Assembly: GCF_009914755.1 (NCBI RefSeq)
Contig: NC_060931.1
DNA length: 64,000 nucleotides
Strand: one strand, 5' to 3'
From: the human T2T-CHM13v2.0 reference genome, Homo sapiens
Shown here piece after piece: positions 31,265 through 50,600 of this stretch. The translations under genes were made by a program, and so were the position numbers. The first letter of the stretch is position 1. The number at the start of each line of letters is the position of its first letter. The notes under the pieces were generated by a model. That model was not told where the DNA came from. It searched no databases and saw only the letters and a program-made list of their open reading frames with translations.

Positions 31265-31677
31265 TTCTGTCAGTTGACAGGGCCTGGAAACAATACCCTG
31301 GAGACAGTCTAGTGCCTTGATCTTGGTTTCTAACATATTTCTCCAATAAAAAATATCAGGAATCCTTGGAGAAATGGCTGATTCTAGTACTGTGGTAGGA
31401 AATCCACAAGATGAATCTGGATTACCTTGTTGTGCCAGAAAGTAAAATAGTGCTAACAAACAAACAGAAAAGACACACAAAGATACAAGCATATCAAAGG
31501 AACTCAGAAGCAAACTGAAGAGCTCCAAGGGGCCAAATTTGAAACAATTGGAGCAAGAAAACGAAGTAGTATTTGAAGTATAACGTTAAATATAAAATAA
31601 GTATCCATATGTCAATATAGATATAAATAAATGGTTGAATAAATAAAAACAAACAAAATGGAGAAAGGAGAAATCTT
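31265..31677 (+). mobile_element. L1MC/MD 3' region, left half of the host of the 18-kb block
   Basis: CCTTGGAGAAATGGCTGATTCTAG...AAATAAATGGTTGAATAAATAA...GGAGAAATCTT. Confidence 0.75.
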
Positions 31678-34600
31678 TCTTTTTTATTATACTTTAAGTT
31701 TAGGGTGCATGTGCACAAGGTGCAGGTTTCTTACATATATATACATGTGCCATGTTGCTGTGCTGCACCCATTAACTCATCATTTAACATTAGGTATATC
31801 TCCAAATGCTATCCCTCCCCCCTCCCCCCACCCCACAACAGTCCCTGGTGTGTGATGTTCCCCTTCCTGTGTCCATGTGTTCTCATTGTTCAATTCCCAT
31901 CTATGAGTGAGAACATGTGGTGTTTGGTTTTTTGTCCTTGCGATAGTTGGCTGAGAATGATGGTTTCCAGCTTCATCCATGTCCCTACAAAGGACATGAA
32001 CTCATCCTTTTTTATGGCTGCACAGTATTCCATGGTGTATATGTGCCACATTTTCTTAATCCAGTCTATCGTTGTTGGACATTTGAGTTGGTTCCAAGTC
32101 TTTGCTATTGTGAATAGTGCCGCAATAAACATACGTGTGCATGTGTCTTTCTAGCAGCATGATTTATAATCCTTTGGGTATATACCCAGTAATGGGATGG
32201 CTGGGTCAAATGGTATTTCTAGTTCTAGATCCCTGAGGAATTGCCACACTGACTTCCACAATGGTTGAACTAGTTTACAGTCCCACCAACAGTGTAAAAG
32301 TGTTCCTATTTCTCCACATCCTCTCCAGCTCCTGTTGTTTCCTGCCTTTTTAATGATCACCATTCTACTGGTGTGAGATGGTATCTCATTGTGGTTTTGA
32401 TTTGCATTTTTCTGATGGCCAGTGATGATGATCATTTTTTCATGTGCCTTTTGGCTGCATAAATGTCTTCTTTTGAGAAGTGTCTGTTCATATCCTTCGC
32501 CCACTTTTTGATAGGGTTGTTTGTTTTTTTCTTGTAAATTTGTTTGAGTTCATTGTAGATTCTGGATATTACCCTTTGTAAGATGAGTAGATTGCAAAAA
32601 TTTTCTCCCATTCTGTAGATTGCCTGTTCACTCTGATGGTAGTTTCTTTTGCTGTGCAGAAGCTCTTTAGTTTAATTAGATCCCAATTGTCAATTTTGGC
32701 TTTTGTTGCCATTGCTTTTGGTGTTTTAGACATGAAGTCCTTGCCCATGCCTATGTCTTGAATGGTATTGCCTAGGTTTTCTTCTAGGGTTTTTATGGTT
32801 TTAGGTGTAACATTTAAGTCTTTAATCCATCTTGAATTAATTTTTGTATAAGGTGTAAGGAAGGGATCCAGTTTCAGCTTTCTACATATGGCTAGCCAGT
32901 TTTCCCAGCACCATTTATTAAATAGGGAATCCTTTCCACATTGCTTGTTTTTCTCAGGTTTGTCAAAGATCAGATAGTTGTAGATATGTGGTATTATTTC
33001 TGAGGGCTCTGTTCTGTTCCATTGATCTATATCTCTGTTTTGGTACCAGTACCATGCTGTTTTGCTTACTGTACCCTTGTAGTATAGTTTGAAGTCAGGT
33101 AGCGTGATGCCTCCAGCTTTGTTCTTTTGGCTTAGGATTGACTTGGTGATGCGGGCTCTTTTCTGGATCCATATGAAGTTTAAAGTAGTTTTTTCGAATT
33201 CTGTGAAGAAAGTCATTGGTAGCCTGATGGGGATGGCATTGAATCTATAAATTACCTTGGGCAGTATGGCCATTTTCACGATATTGATTCTTCCTACCCA
33301 TGAGCATGGAATGTTCTTCCATTTGTTTGTGTCCACTTTTATTTCATTGAGCAGTGGTTTGTAGTTCTCCTTGAAGAGGTCCTTCACACCCCTTGTAAGT
33401 TGGATTCGTAGGTATTTTATTTGCTTTGAAGCAATTGTGAATGGGAGTTCACTCATGATTTGGCTCTCTGTTTGTCTGTTATTGGTGTATAAGAATGCTT
33501 GTGAGTTTTGCACATTGATTTTGTATCCTGAGACTTTGCTGAAGTTGCCTATCAGCTTGAGGAGATTTTGGGCTGAGACGATGGGGTTTTCTAGGTATAC
33601 AATCATGTCATCTGCACACAGGGACAATTTGACTTCCTCTTTTCCTAATTGAATACCCTTATTTCCTTCTCCTGCCTGATTGCCCTGGCCAGAACTTCTA
33701 ACACTATGTTGAATAGCAGTGGTGAGAGAGGGCATCCCTGTCTTGTGCCAGTTTTCAAAGGCAATGCTTCCAGTTTTTGCCCATTCAGTATGATATTGGC
33801 TGTGGGTTTGTTATAAATAGCTCTTATTATGTTGAGATACGTCCCATCAATACCTAATTTATTGAGAGTTTTTAGCATGAACTGTTGTTGAATTTTGTTG
33901 AAGGCCTTTTCTTTATCTATTGAGATAATCATGTGGTTTTTGTCGTTGGTTCTGTTTATATGCTGGATTACATTTATTGATTTCTATATGTTCAGCCAGG
34001 CTTGCATCCCAGGGATGAAGCCCACTTGATCATGGTGGATAAGCTTTTTGATGTGTTGCTGGTTTCGGTTTGCCGGTATTTTATTGAGGATCTTTGCGTC
34101 AATGTTCATCAGAGATATTTTTCTAGAATTCTCTTTTTTTGTTGTGTCTCTGCCAGGCTTTGGTATCAGGATGATGCTGGCCTCACAAAATGAGTGAGGG
34201 AGGATTCCCTCTTTTTCTATTGATTGGAATAGTTTCAGAAGGAATGGTACCAGCTCCTCCTTGTACCTCTGGTAGAATTCGGCCGTGAATCCATCTGGTC
34301 CTGGACTTTTTTTGGTTGGTAAGCTATTGATTATTGCCACAATTTCAGAGCGTGTTATTGGTCTATTCAGAGATTCAACTTCTTCCTAGTTTAGTCTTGG
34401 GAGGGTGTATGTGTCGAGGAATTTATCCATTTCTTCTAGATTTTCTAGTTTATTTGCGTAGAGGTGTTTGTAGTATTCTCTGATGGTATTTTGTATTTCT
34501 GTGGGATCGGTGGTGATATCCCTTTTATCATTTTTTATTGTATCTATTTCATTCTTCTCTCATTTCTTCTTTATTAGTCTTGCTAGCAGTCTATCAATTT

Positions 34601-35558
34601 TGTTGATCTTTTCAAAAAACCAGCTCCTGGATTCATTAATTTTTTGAAGGGTTTTTTTGTGTCTCTATTTCCTTCAGTTCTGCTCTGATTTTAGTTATTT
34701 CTTGCCTTCTGCTAGCTTTTGAATGTGTTTCCTCTTGCTTTTCTAGTTCTTTTAATTGTGATTTTAGGGTGTCAATTTTGGATCTTTCCTGCTTTCTCTT
34801 GTGGGCATTTAGTGCTATAAATTTCCCTCTACACACTGCTTTGAATGTGTCCCAGAGATTCTGGTATGTTGTGTCTTTGTTCTCGTTGGTTTCAAAGAAC
34901 ATCTTTATTTCTGCCTTCATTTCGTTATGTACCCAGTAGTCATTCAGGAGCAGGTTGTTCAGTTTCCATGTAGTTGAGTGGTCTTGAGTGAATTTCTTAA
35001 TCCTGAGTTCTAGTTTGATTGCACTGTGGTCTGAGAGACAGTTTGTTATAATTTCTGTTCTTTTCCATTTGCTGAGGAGTGCTTTATTTCCAACTATGTG
35101 GTCAATTTTGGAATAGGTGTGGTGTGGTGCTGAAAAGAATGTATATTCTGTTGATTTGGGGTGGAGAGTTCTGTAGATGTCTATTAGGTCCGCTTGGTGC
35201 AGAGCTGAGTTCAGTTCCTGGGTATCCTTGTTAACTTTCTGTCTCGTTGATCTGACTAATGTTGACAGTGGTGTGTTAAAGTCTCCCATTATTATTGTGT
35301 GGGAGTCTAAGTCTCTTAGTAGGTCTCTGAGGACTTGCTCTATGAATCTGGGTGCTCCTGTATTGGGTGCATATATACTTAGGATAGTTAGCTCTTCTTG
35401 TTGAATTGATCCCTTTACCATTATGTAATGGCCTTCTTTGTCTCCTTTGATCTTTGTTGGTTTAAAGTCTGTTTTATTAGAGACTAGGATTGCAAGCCCT
35501 ACCTTTTTTTGTTTTCCATTTGCTTGGTAGATCTTCCTCCATCCCTTTATTTTGAGCC
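31678..35558 (-). mobile_element. L1PA copy B: 3' ~3.9 kb, ending early in the ORF2 endonuclease domain
   Basis: ORF2 remnants 34636-35421 (EN: NIYAP-like, SDH), 33984-34340 and 32569-33735; short A-tail at 31678-31685. Confidence 0.95.
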
Positions 35559-49917: not shown

Positions 49918-49918
49918 T

Positions 49919-50600
49919 GGAGAAATCTTCTATGCAGAAAAATTCCAAATGCATACTCCCTCTTCTTAAGTGTGGGCTGACCATGGTGACTTCTTTCAAA
50001 GAGTACGATATAGAAAATTAATTGTTTTTAAAATGTTACTATGCAGAGAAGAGAACTGACAAGAACTGCTTCAAGCTAGGTGATAAAGTTTAGCACCAGC
50101 AATCATGAATCATATTGATAAGAGGTATTCTTGATACAATGTGATGAAGATGACATTTTTTTCTCTGTTCTTCCTCCAATAAACACATTAGCCCAGTGTA
50201 ATCATGAGAAAAACATCAGACAAATTTCATTGTAGGGACATTCTACAAAATACCTGACCATTACTCCTCAAAACTGTCAAAGTAATCAAATACAAGAAAA
50301 GTCTGAGAAATTGTCATAGTCAAGAGAAGCTTAATGACACATGATGACTAAATGTTATGTGGCATCCTAGGTGGGACCCTATAACAGAAAAAGGACATTG
50401 TGAAAAAGGCTGAGGAAATCTGAATAAAGTAAGGAATTTTAATTAAAATTAAATAGCAGTCCATTAGTTGTGACAAATGTATCATCCTTATATAAGATGT
50501 TACTACTGGGGGAAGTTGGTATAGGGTATATGGAAACTCTCTCTACTATCTTTACAATAATTTTGCAAATCAAACCTTTTTTAAAAAAATTAATAAAAAA
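49919..50600 (+). mobile_element. L1MC/MD 3' region, right half of the host of the 18-kb block
   Basis: GGAGAAATCTTCTATGCAGAAAAATTCCAAAT...CTTAAGTGTGGGCTG...GGAAACTCTCT continues the element at 31265-31677. Confidence 0.8.

What the first reader, a model, noticed from the sequence alone, without database searches (positions are those of the whole stretch)
31667..49931. One L1 target-site duplication brackets an 18.2-kb composite block (three L1 arms plus captured DNA)
Seen: the flank beyond the tail of copy B reads GGAGAAATCTT(TCT) (31667-31680). The flank beyond the 5' end of copy D reads GGAGAAATCTT(CT) (49919-49931). The exact match is 11 bp, ending in an L1-endonuclease-like TTCT/AT site. 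Deleting everything in between rejoins one old L1MC/MD element (31265-31677 + 49919-50600). The flank at D's own tail (ATAATGTAAATT) has no partner at D's 5' end. B and D also share states that A and C lack: CTGTGTGCAG (LCAD), CTGATAG, and T rather than C in the 3'UTR motif CTAAT(G/A)TTAAATG. Inference: a single full-length L1 was later expanded into B(-)/C(+)/4.8-kb foreign DNA/D(-), behaving like a composite transposon or landing pad. Candidate mechanisms are replication template switching (the -,+,- triplication of the L1 3' end resembles DUP-TRP/INV-DUP), two successive L1-L1 inversions, or homologous integration of an L1-bounded circle. Standard repeat annotation would report these as independent elements.
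Basis: partly seen in the sequence, partly recalled or inferred. Interest (0 to 1): 0.9.

Follow-up and report, generated by a model that had tools for sequence, protein, structure and literature searches.

The report
L1-templated origin of inversion repeat
An old full-length L1 element had its middle replaced by about 12.8 kb copied backwards from a nearby cluster of L1s, and the resulting block is one of the two inverted repeats behind a common, already known human inversion at 7p11.2.

Summary
GGAGAAATCTT occurs only twice in the window, at 31667-31677 and 49919-49929. One copy abuts the T-tail of minus-strand L1 B; the other abuts the 5' end of full-length minus-strand L1 D. The outer flanks are adjacent pieces of one older L1. 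So one resident full-length L1 ("X") was later expanded.

The inner DNA is not a triplication of X. Window 34038-49915 is an inverted paralog of chr7:54379781-54395663 ("U"), 74 kb upstream. U is the donor. There, full-length L1 D' has its own 16-bp duplication, and the B/C junction is the inversion junction of a twin-primed L1 (C') lying in a continuous older L1.

About 12.7-12.8 kb (34284 to 47011-47131) is near-identical to U, with 1 difference in 10.3 kb centrally. Both junctions are in-register L1-to-L1 switches. Beyond them, W and U differ by 7-8%.

Best reading: homology-directed gap repair (ectopic gene conversion) of X, templated by U.

The block is IR2 of the known polymorphic inversion HsInv0286 / inv7_005 (15.9-kb repeats, frequency about 0.47). 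Repeat sizes, a constant coordinate offset and the published primers all match. CHM13 carries the standard orientation. The locus is known; how IR2 arose was not described in the passages I read.

The parts
31265..31666 (.). Left half of the old host L1-family repeat into which X inserted
   Evidence: About 70-75% identical to many genomic copies. Colinear with the right half in 6 of 7 paralogs tested.
31667..31677 (+). Left copy of X's target-site duplication, GGAGAAATCTT
   Evidence: It abuts the T-tail.
31678..34283 (-). Resident L1 X, 3' part. Short tail TCTTTTTT at 31678-31685, then the L1 3' end back to about L1 position 3540 on the D ruler.
   Evidence: 93-95% identical to the other L1PA copies. 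In 34038-34283 it differs from donor C'inv at 18 of 246 positions.
34284..35557 (-). Copied from the donor: the inverted arm of twin-primed L1 C' (D-ruler 2259 to about 3536). It continues X in register. It contains the 34731-34983 patch.
   Evidence: 0 of 447 differences in 34284-34730 and 6 of 574 in 34984-35557. The patch has 13 of 253 differences; there W keeps the allele seen in 14-20 of 20 other L1s at 9 sites, while donor C'inv equals donor D'.
35558..37919 (+). Copied from the donor: the sense arm of twin-primed L1 C' (D-ruler 3779 to the end, plus an A8 tail).
   Evidence: One difference from the donor in 2362 bp. The inverted arm ends at about 3776-3778 and this arm starts at 3779.
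37920..42740 (.). Copied from the donor: the 'foreign' DNA. It is the 5' portion of an older L1 that hosts C' at the donor, plus about 0.3 kb more, and ends in the tail-side copy of D's own target-site duplication (42725-42740).
   Evidence: 100% identical to chr7:54386977-54391754 on the minus strand; every other genomic match is 86% or less, and 78% or less for matches over 1 kb. In paralog L012 the donor's outer flank and this DNA are contiguous, at host positions 1499 and 1501.
42741..47011 (-). Copied from the donor: the tail and 3' 4.3 kb of full-length L1 D', including its LTR insert
   Evidence: 0 differences in 42739-45855 and 5 in 45856-47011.
44209..45259 (-). 1051-bp solo-LTR-like insertion inside D, flanked by the 6-bp duplication GCCAAG (45265-45260 and 44208-44203). 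It is absent from A, B and C.
   Evidence: The family name was not determined.
43979..44772 (.). Approximate position of the published sequence-exchange interval of inversion HsInv0286 (BP2). It lies inside the identical core.
   Evidence: hg18 54353522-54354315 (Table 1) plus the constant offset of 126,457 derived from Table S1 against my coordinates. The position is inferred by arithmetic.
47012..47131 (-). Right switch interval, where donor D' type changes to resident X type, in register
   Evidence: The last donor-specific derived allele is at 47012. The first X-private allele is at 47131.
47132..49918 (-). Resident L1 X, 5' part, up to the full-length 5' end
   Evidence: 223 differences in 2787 bp from donor D' (8.0%). 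It ends in ...GGCTCCACCCCCT.
49919..49929 (+). Right copy of X's target-site duplication, GGAGAAATCTT
49930..50600 (.). Right half of the old host L1-family repeat

Best explanation
A full-length L1PA element (X, about 6.13 kb, minus strand) inserted by target-primed reverse transcription into an older L1. This made the 11-bp duplication GGAGAAATCTT.

Much later X was broken or gapped between about L1 positions 2.8-2.9 kb and 3.54 kb. It was repaired by homologous recombination using a non-allelic template, locus U, which lies 74-90 kb upstream in inverted orientation.

U carries, in order: a full-length L1 (D', holding a solo LTR), 4.8 kb of older L1 DNA, and a twin-primed L1 (C'). The inverted arm of C' has the same polarity as D'.

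One end of X paired with the inverted arm of C' and the other end with D'. To the two ends, U looked like 'an L1 with a large insertion', and everything between the pairing points was copied in. This is two-ended gap repair, that is ectopic (interlocus) gene conversion.

About 0.6-0.7 kb of X was replaced by 12.7-12.8 kb of U. Together with the flanking L1-to-L1 homeology, this produced the 15.9-kb inverted repeat IR2 of the inversion HsInv0286.

Shown directly: the duplication, the continuity of the host repeat, the donor locus, the direction U to W, and the in-register junctions.

Inferred: the break in X, the repair pathway, and that it was a single event.
For: 1. The TSD and the split host repeat are real.

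2. Window 34038-49915 matches chr7:54395663-54379781 in inverted orientation. It is the only intra-region match at 97% or above in the 164 kb examined. The inner 4778 bp has exactly two copies in the genome.

3. Divergence is step-like:
- 7.3% in 34038-34283
- 0 of 447 in 34284-34730
- 1 of 10,298 in 35558-45855
- 8.0% in 47132-49918
The outer parts are therefore a different L1 (X) from the donor's.

4. Both switches keep L1 coordinates continuous, with no indel at either junction. The retained and replaced parts add up to about 6.13 kb, equal to D without its LTR.

5. Direction. In U, D' is flanked by its own duplication AATGTA(A/G)ATTTTCTTT, 15 of 16 positions, reached by 3 of 5000 shuffles. 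In U, C' interrupts a continuous older L1, with the flank at host position 1499 and the inner DNA at 1501 of paralog L012. In W the same ends abut X instead.

6. The C' arms cover D-ruler 2259 to about 3778 (inverted) and 3779 to the end (sense). This is the layout of a twin-primed L1 (abstract of PMC2837659).

7. The structure is in print as a real pair of repeats. Table S1 of PMC3961182 gives IR1 15,887 bp and IR2 15,878 bp, at a constant offset of about 126.46 kb from my coordinates. The six published primers map in the order A-IR1-B...C-IR2-D.

8. Large interlocus conversions are documented: mean 6.26 kbp, top 10% above 14.4 kbp (PMC10172114, passages).
Against: - No outgroup or second human haplotype could be examined. 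The pre-event state (an intact X) is inferred, not seen.

- The 253-bp patch at 34731-34983 (13 differences) admits two readings. I favour a later D' to C'inv conversion of at most 262 bp inside U, because the patch coincides with the stretch where donor C'inv and donor D' are identical and share derived alleles absent from most or all of 20 other L1s. That reading leaves 34731 unexplained. The alternative is patchy mismatch repair with a single break near L1 position 2.82 kb.

- Differences inside the copied tract are not uniform. Eleven events lie within 2.7 kb of a junction (10 of them within 1.3 kb) and none lies in 36931-45855, a span of 8.9 kb. So there was either more than one conversion event or locally error-prone synthesis, and the age is uncertain.

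- Sequence alone cannot separate double-strand-break gap repair from replicative template switching guided by the same L1 homology.

- The nick site of X (TCTT/CT) is only a weak match to the L1 endonuclease preference, which I recall as TTTT/AA.
Confidence: 0.75

Rival explanations
1. Replication-based template switching (FoSTeS / MMBIR / break-induced replication). A fork collapsed inside X. The nascent strand invaded the inverted L1 at U through homeology, copied about 12.8 kb, and switched back to X through the second L1 homology.
For: It gives the same end product: two in-register L1-to-L1 junctions, an inverted copy, and an intact donor. The excess of point differences within about 1.3 kb of the junctions could reflect error-prone synthesis.
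Against: Such events typically leave microhomology joints and often extra copies (a triplication). Here there are only two copies, and both switches lie in long homology (1.5 kb and over 6 kb). The central 8.9 kb carries no errors at all.
Confidence: 0.15
2. Two successive L1-to-L1 non-allelic crossovers (inversions), followed by recombination between arrangements, assembled the block.
For: Each W junction, taken alone, looks like the product of an inverted-repeat crossover: D' x X on the right and C'inv x X on the left. The region does invert in humans (PMC3961182).
Against: Inversions move DNA and do not duplicate it, yet both U and W keep a full copy. The TSD halves and host halves are still in cis and in direct orientation. 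The two switch points in X lie only about 0.6-0.7 kb apart and in the right order for a simple replacement.
Confidence: 0.04
3. One very long read-through L1 transcript (D plus 11 kb of 3' transduced DNA, ending at B's poly-A signal) retrotransposed as an 18-kb unit. That would explain a single TSD.
For: Read in the sense direction of D, the block starts with a full-length L1 and ends with an L1 3' end, a short A-tail and the TSD.
Against: The only other copy of the inner DNA (U) does not continue into a B-like L1 3' part. Beyond C'inv it runs into an older L1 at about 71% identity. The 5' 2.8 kb of D in W differs by 8% from the donor, while the adjoining 12.8 kb is near-identical. That is impossible for a single cDNA.
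Confidence: 0.01
4. Chance 11-bp match or an assembly artefact. On this view B, C and D are unrelated neighbouring insertions, or a false duplication in the assembly.
For: None beyond the A/T-poor, simple look of the 11-mer.
Against: - The motif occurs only at the two junctions.
- The host halves are adjacent in paralogs.
- The same two repeats, 15,887 and 15,878 bp, are in the hg18 reference.
- The inversion they mediate was validated by fosmids and inverse PCR (PMC3961182, Table 1, Table S1 and S2 passages).
Confidence: 0.01

Closest known systems
Inverted repeats IR1/IR2 of the human polymorphic inversion HsInv0286 (InvFEST), also called inv7_005 at 7p11.2
   Same: It is the same object. 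Window 34038-49915 (15,878 bp) is IR2, and chr7:54379781-54395663 is IR1. Sizes, the constant offset to hg18, the spacer (74,374 bp here against 74,342 sites / 73.9 kb in print) and the primer order all match.
   Different: [quoted passage not shown] In the sections and passages I read I saw no account of donor, recipient, the bracketing TSD or the L1-homology junctions.
Ectopic gene conversion of a broken LINE using other genomic LINEs (Tremblay, Jasin and Chartrand 2000; seen only as a reference title, paper not held) and large interlocus gene conversion in segmental duplications (Vollger et al. 2023, PMC10172114)
   Same: The transfer is non-reciprocal and homology-guided, the donor stays intact, and the tract is kilobases long.
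   Different: Here the homology is two separate, about 93%-identical old L1 pieces flanking roughly 9 kb of DNA that the recipient lacked. The conversion therefore created a new duplication rather than homogenising an existing one.
Transposable-element-mediated rearrangements (Balachandran et al. 2022, PMC9675761)
   Same: The breakpoints lie in homologous positions of two L1s, and each junction reconstitutes a chimeric but continuous L1.
   Different: The passages I saw in that paper did not use the terms 'dispersed duplication' or 'inverted duplication'. This case is a dispersed inverted duplication with two chimeric junctions.
Twin-priming L1 insertions
   Same: The donor element C' has an inverted 5' segment directly abutting the sense 3' segment at consecutive L1 coordinates. 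It has an A-tail and lies within a continuous host sequence.
   Different: Its own target-site duplication is blurred. In W its inverted arm has been fused in register to X, which hides the twin-priming structure and makes 'B' look like one 3.9-kb L1.
DUP-TRP/INV-DUP structures
   Same: An inverted copy lies between same-sense L1 sequences, and inverted repeats act as the substrate.
   Different: There is no triplication. The inner DNA exists in two copies only, and the three L1 3' ends come from three different insertions.

Membership tests
L1 insertion by target-primed reverse transcription (element X) | Direct target-site duplication immediately outside the tail and the 5' end | tested here: met
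   An 11-bp exact repeat at 31667-31677 and 49919-49929. These are the only two copies in the window.
L1 insertion by target-primed reverse transcription (element X) | Removing the element restores a continuous pre-insertion sequence | tested here: met
   In paralog L004 the two flanks overlap by exactly 11 bp. In L003 and L007 they lie within 13-24 bp. Three more paralogs are colinear with insertions of their own, and 1 of 7 was uninformative.
L1 insertion by target-primed reverse transcription (element X) | Poly-A tail and an endonuclease-type nick site (TTTT/AA, recalled) | tested here: inconclusive
   The tail is short (A6GA in the sense direction). The inferred nick is TCTT/CT, a weak match.
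Twin-primed L1 (donor element C', copied into W) | An inverted 5' segment abutting the sense 3' segment at adjacent L1 coordinates | tested here: met
   The inverted arm covers D-ruler 2259 to about 3776-3778. The sense arm covers 3779 to the end. The junction is at 35557 with a 1-bp overlap.
Twin-primed L1 (donor element C', copied into W) | Flanking target-site duplication | tested here: inconclusive
   The host L1 is continuous across C'. Only a degenerate repeat (ATAA..AATTTC) is visible next to the tail.
Inverted repeats of HsInv0286 | Position, size and orientation of the two repeats, and the published assay primers | tested here: met
   IR sizes are 15,887 and 15,878 bp. The offset to hg18 is 126,457-126,466 at all four ends. 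All 6 of 6 primers were found once each, in the order A-IR1-B...C-IR2-D.
Ectopic (interlocus) gene conversion / two-ended gap repair | Non-reciprocal copy with the donor intact, and both junctions inside homology and in register | tested here: met
   Donor polarity comes from D's own duplication and the continuity of the host L1.
Ectopic (interlocus) gene conversion / two-ended gap repair | An ancestral recipient lacking the tract (an empty or intact-X state) | not testable with these tools
DUP-TRP/INV-DUP | A triplicated, inverted middle segment flanked by duplications | tested here: not met
   There are only two genomic copies of the inner 4778 bp and one intra-region match at 97% or above.
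Composite transposon | The whole block mobilised as a unit, generating its own target-site duplication | tested here: not met
   The TSD belongs to X. The interior arrived by copying from U, with junctions inside X. No third copy exists.

The most novel reading that the evidence does not exclude
In a single germline repair event in the hominid lineage, two separate, about 93%-identical old L1 fragments acted as the homology arms of a natural 'ends-out targeting' reaction. It pasted 12.8 kb in inverted orientation 74 kb away. In doing so it created, in one step, the substrate for a common human inversion with an allele frequency of about 0.5. If this is general, old dispersed L1s seed new inverted segmental duplications by gap repair, and bracketing TSDs could be used genome-wide to find such events and assign donor and recipient.
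Probability: 0.45. Interest if true: 0.55.

Novelty: new member of a known kind. Interest (0 to 1): 0.4.

Why it matters
How the inverted repeats that drive recurrent or common inversions arise is rarely resolved to the base pair. Here the L1 target-site duplication acts as a fossil label. It shows which repeat is the copy (IR2), what was there before (an ordinary full-length L1), and which orientation is ancestral; the standard orientation, which CHM13 carries, keeps the two TSD halves in cis. It also shows that both edges of the new duplication lie in L1-to-L1 homology.

Two practical points follow. Only about 12.8 kb of the annotated 15.9-kb repeat is truly paralogous at high identity. The remaining 3.1 kb is homeology between unrelated L1 insertions. 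This matters for breakpoint mapping and for gene-conversion analyses at this locus.

The locus and its inversion are already known, so this adds a mechanism; it does not add a new kind of element.

Tried and rejected

- 3' transduction or one long retrotranscript was considered first and rejected (see rivals).

- My first reading of the left junction was a patchy mosaic from a single break near L1 position 2.82 kb. I revised it after 20 other L1PA copies showed that W carries the family-typical alleles in 34731-34983, while donor C'inv, donor D' and W's D share a derived haplotype there. The mosaic reading is kept as an alternative.

- I tried to fetch 20 full-length L1s to test whether X's two halves belong to one subfamily. 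Only 601-bp slices were fetched, so a direct same-subfamily test of X's 5' and 3' parts was not done. The top 40 scored genomic relatives of X's 5' part and of D's 5' part share no locus. Only 40 of more than 11,000 candidates were scored each time, so this is weak.

- No subfamily names were assigned, because no repeat library was available. 'L1PA-like' and 'solo LTR' are descriptive.

- Literature:
  - 'LINC01445' + 'inversion' gave 0 papers.
  - 'HsInv0286' gave 3 papers, 2 listed.
  - 'inv7_005' gave 1 paper.
  - PMC6748972 does not contain 'HsInv0286' in its main text.
  - Tremblay et al. 2000 is not held.
  - I read Aguado et al. 2014 only as section 6, passages and supplement passages, so a remark on repeat origin elsewhere in that paper or in its PDF supplements cannot be excluded.

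- No protein, RNA or structure tools were relevant.

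
Full report
**1. The observation**

The 11-mer GGAGAAATCTT lies at 31667-31677 and 49919-49929. 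It occurs nowhere else on either strand of the window. Shuffles expect 0.08 copies, and 1 of 100 shuffles reached two.

- The left copy is followed at once by TCTTTTTT and the reverse complement of an L1 3' end.
- The right copy follows at once the reverse complement of a full-length L1 5' end.

I used copy D as a ruler:
- A, plus strand, 18922-21504
- B, minus strand, 31674-35557 (ruler 2259 to the end)
- C, plus strand, 35557-37919 (ruler 3779 to the end)
- D, minus strand, 42739-49918. D is full length and carries about 1.05 kb that A, B and C lack.

The outer flanks belong to an old L1-family repeat with many genomic copies at about 70-75% identity. I tested 7 such copies:
- One shows the two flanks overlapping by exactly 11 bp.
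- Two place them within 13-24 bp of each other.
- Three are colinear but carry insertions of their own.
- One was uninformative.

So the bracket is a real L1 target-site duplication around a once-continuous site.

**2. What lies inside**

A whole-genome search with the 4778-bp 'foreign' stretch found exactly one other copy. It is 100% identical and lies at chr7:54386977-54391754 on the opposite strand. Every other match was 86% or less, and those longer than 1 kb were 78% or less.

I fetched 100 kb of surrounding sequence and compared the 164-kb region with itself. This gave a single match at 97% or above: window 34038-49915 against chr7:54395663-54379781, inverted, 15.9 kb. I call the upstream locus U and the window block W.

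The differences between W and U are step-like:

| Window interval | Differences | Divergence |
|---|---|---|
| 34038-34283 | 18 in 246 bp | 7.3% |
| 34284-34730 | 0 in 447 bp | 0% |
| 34731-34983 | 13 in 253 bp | 5.1% |
| 34984-35557 | 6 in 574 bp | 1.05% |
| 35558-45855 | 1 in 10,298 bp | 0.01% |
| 45856-47011 | 5 in 1,156 bp | 0.43% |
| 47012-47131 (switch interval) | 2 in 120 bp | 1.7% |
| 47132-49918 | 223 in 2,787 bp | 8.0% |

So about 12.7-12.8 kb is a very close copy. The two outer ends of the annotated repeat are merely one L1 aligned to a different L1.

**3. Which locus is the source**

- In U, the full-length L1 D' is flanked at its tail and its 5' end by its own duplication, AATGTA(A/G)ATTTTCTTT. 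It matches at 15 of 16 positions, and 3 of 5000 shuffles reach that score. In W the same tail-side copy is present (42725-42740), but the 5' end abuts GGAGAAATCTT instead.
- In U, the DNA beyond the other end of the repeat is an older L1. In a paralogous copy (L012) it runs straight on into the 'foreign' DNA, at host positions 1499 and 1501. So in U the 4.8-kb stretch and its outer flank are one old L1 interrupted by an insertion, C'.
- C' has an inverted arm (ruler 2259 to about 3778) directly abutting a sense arm (3779 to the end, with an A-tail). This is the layout described for twin-primed L1s (abstract of PMC2837659).

U is therefore the ancestral arrangement, made of two ordinary L1 insertions in older DNA. 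W is the recipient.

In W the inverted arm of C' happens to continue the resident L1 in register. That is why 'B' looks like a single 3.9-kb element, and why the B/C junction looks like a rearrangement breakpoint.

**4. The junctions**

I aligned four sequences over ruler 2259-3778: W-left, donor C'inv, W's D and donor D'. I added 20 other L1PA copies as a reference.

- The right switch, from D' type to resident type, lies in 47012-47131.
- The left switch, from resident type to C' type, lies at 34280-34284.
- Both are in register.
- The retained resident parts are 2,606 bp and about 2.8-2.9 kb. With the 0.6-0.7 kb that was replaced, they sum to about 6.13 kb, the length of D without its LTR.

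In the 34731-34983 patch:
- W carries the allele seen in 14-20 of the 20 other copies at 9 sites.
- Donor C'inv is identical to donor D' across the stretch bounded by 35004 and 34741.
- Donor C'inv and donor D' share derived alleles there.

I read this as a later conversion of at most 262 bp from D' to C'inv inside U. It leaves one site (34731) unexplained. The alternative is patchy mismatch repair of a single break near ruler 2.82 kb.

Either way the junction anatomy is that of homologous repair. One end of a broken X paired with C'inv, the other paired with D', and the 12.8 kb between them in U was copied.

**5. What this is in the literature**

The block is IR2 of the polymorphic inversion HsInv0286.

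From Aguado et al. 2014 (PMC3961182):
- Table 2 gives an inverted-allele frequency of 0.47 in CEU, with chimpanzee and gorilla in the standard orientation (passages).
- Table S1 gives IR1 as hg18 54253315-54269201 (15,887 bp) and IR2 as 54343581-54359458 (15,878 bp).

All four repeat ends differ from my CHM13 coordinates by 126,457-126,466 bp. All six published primers occur once each, in the order A-IR1-B...C-IR2-D. So CHM13 carries the standard arrangement.

scoreInvHap lists the same inversion as inv7_005 at 7p11.2, 73.9 kb, frequency about 50% (PMC6608898). My spacer is 74,374 bp.

The published exchange interval maps by offset to about window 43979-44772, inside the identical core.

I found no description of how IR2 arose:
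- The 'HsInv0286' search gave 3 papers.
- The 'inv7_005' search gave 1 paper.
- Only passages and one section of the main paper were read.

**6. Mechanism and rivals**

Two-ended gap repair (ectopic gene conversion) best fits:
- the intact donor,
- the inverted copy,
- two in-register homology junctions,
- a small replaced interval.

Kilobase-scale interlocus conversion is well documented, with a mean of 6.26 kbp and the top 10% above 14.4 kbp (PMC10172114). Repair of a broken LINE from other LINEs has been reported; I saw only the reference title.

Replicative template switching through the same homologies cannot be excluded from sequence alone. The other readings are contradicted by the data above:
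- successive inversions,
- a single 18-kb retrotranscript,
- a chance match,
- misassembly.

Partitions are AB|CD 20, AC|BD 13, AD|BC 6.

**7. Open points**

*Age.* The centre of the tract (1 difference in 10.3 kb) suggests very recent copying or homogenisation. The roughly 2.2 kb near the junctions (11 events, about 0.5%) suggests millions of years.

*Clustering of differences.* Eleven events lie within 2.7 kb of a junction (10 of them within 1.3 kb), and none lies in 36931-45855. This is unexplained. It may reflect later central conversion or error-prone synthesis.

*Pre-event state.* No outgroup sequence was available, so it is inferred.

**8. Verdict**

The object is a known inverted repeat of a known inversion. 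The new element is a base-pair account of its origin.

Noticed in passing
window 44209-45259 (with 45265-45260 and 44208-44203): A 1051-bp solo-LTR-like insertion inside L1 D, also present in donor D'. It is flanked by the 6-bp duplication GCCAAG and contains two adjacent units of about 86 bp at 80% identity (44272-44447). The family was not identified.
   Followed up: partly
window 36931-45855 versus 34984-35557 and 45856-47011: Differences between the two inversion repeats cluster near the ends of the copied tract: 11 events within 2.7 kb of a junction (10 of them within 1.3 kb). None falls in the central 8.9 kb. This fits either later central homogenisation or error-prone repair synthesis. 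It is unresolved.
   Followed up: partly
chr7:54394900-54395160 (donor U, outside the window), corresponding to window 34741-35004: Donor C'inv and donor D' are identical over at most 262 bp and share about 9 derived alleles absent from most or all of 20 other L1 copies. This looks like a short conversion between two same-sense L1 pieces 12 kb apart inside IR1.
   Followed up: yes
window 47001 and 47004: Two C-to-T differences 3 bp apart, private to W, lie 8-11 bp inside the copied tract next to the right switch interval.
   Followed up: no
window 37908-37951: Next to the tail of C, the 17-mer ATAATAAAAAAAATTTC occurs twice, separated by ATCTTTTTTT. This blurs the target-site duplication of the twin-primed element. 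The same sequence is present in the donor.
   Followed up: partly
window 18922-21504: Copy A is a separate 5'-truncated plus-strand L1PA (ruler 3562 to the end) with its own A-tail. It is 95.2-95.3% identical to B and C and is not part of the duplicated block.
   Followed up: partly
window 30574 and 53479: Published inverse-PCR primers C1 and D1 for HsInv0286 lie in the window on either side of the block. Primers A and B lie at chr7:54367908-54368032 and 54409361. CHM13 is therefore in the standard orientation.
   Followed up: yes
window 12596-15356 and 26931-29351: Older plus-strand L1 fragments, 62-76% identical to D, lie upstream of the block. They were not examined further.
   Followed up: no
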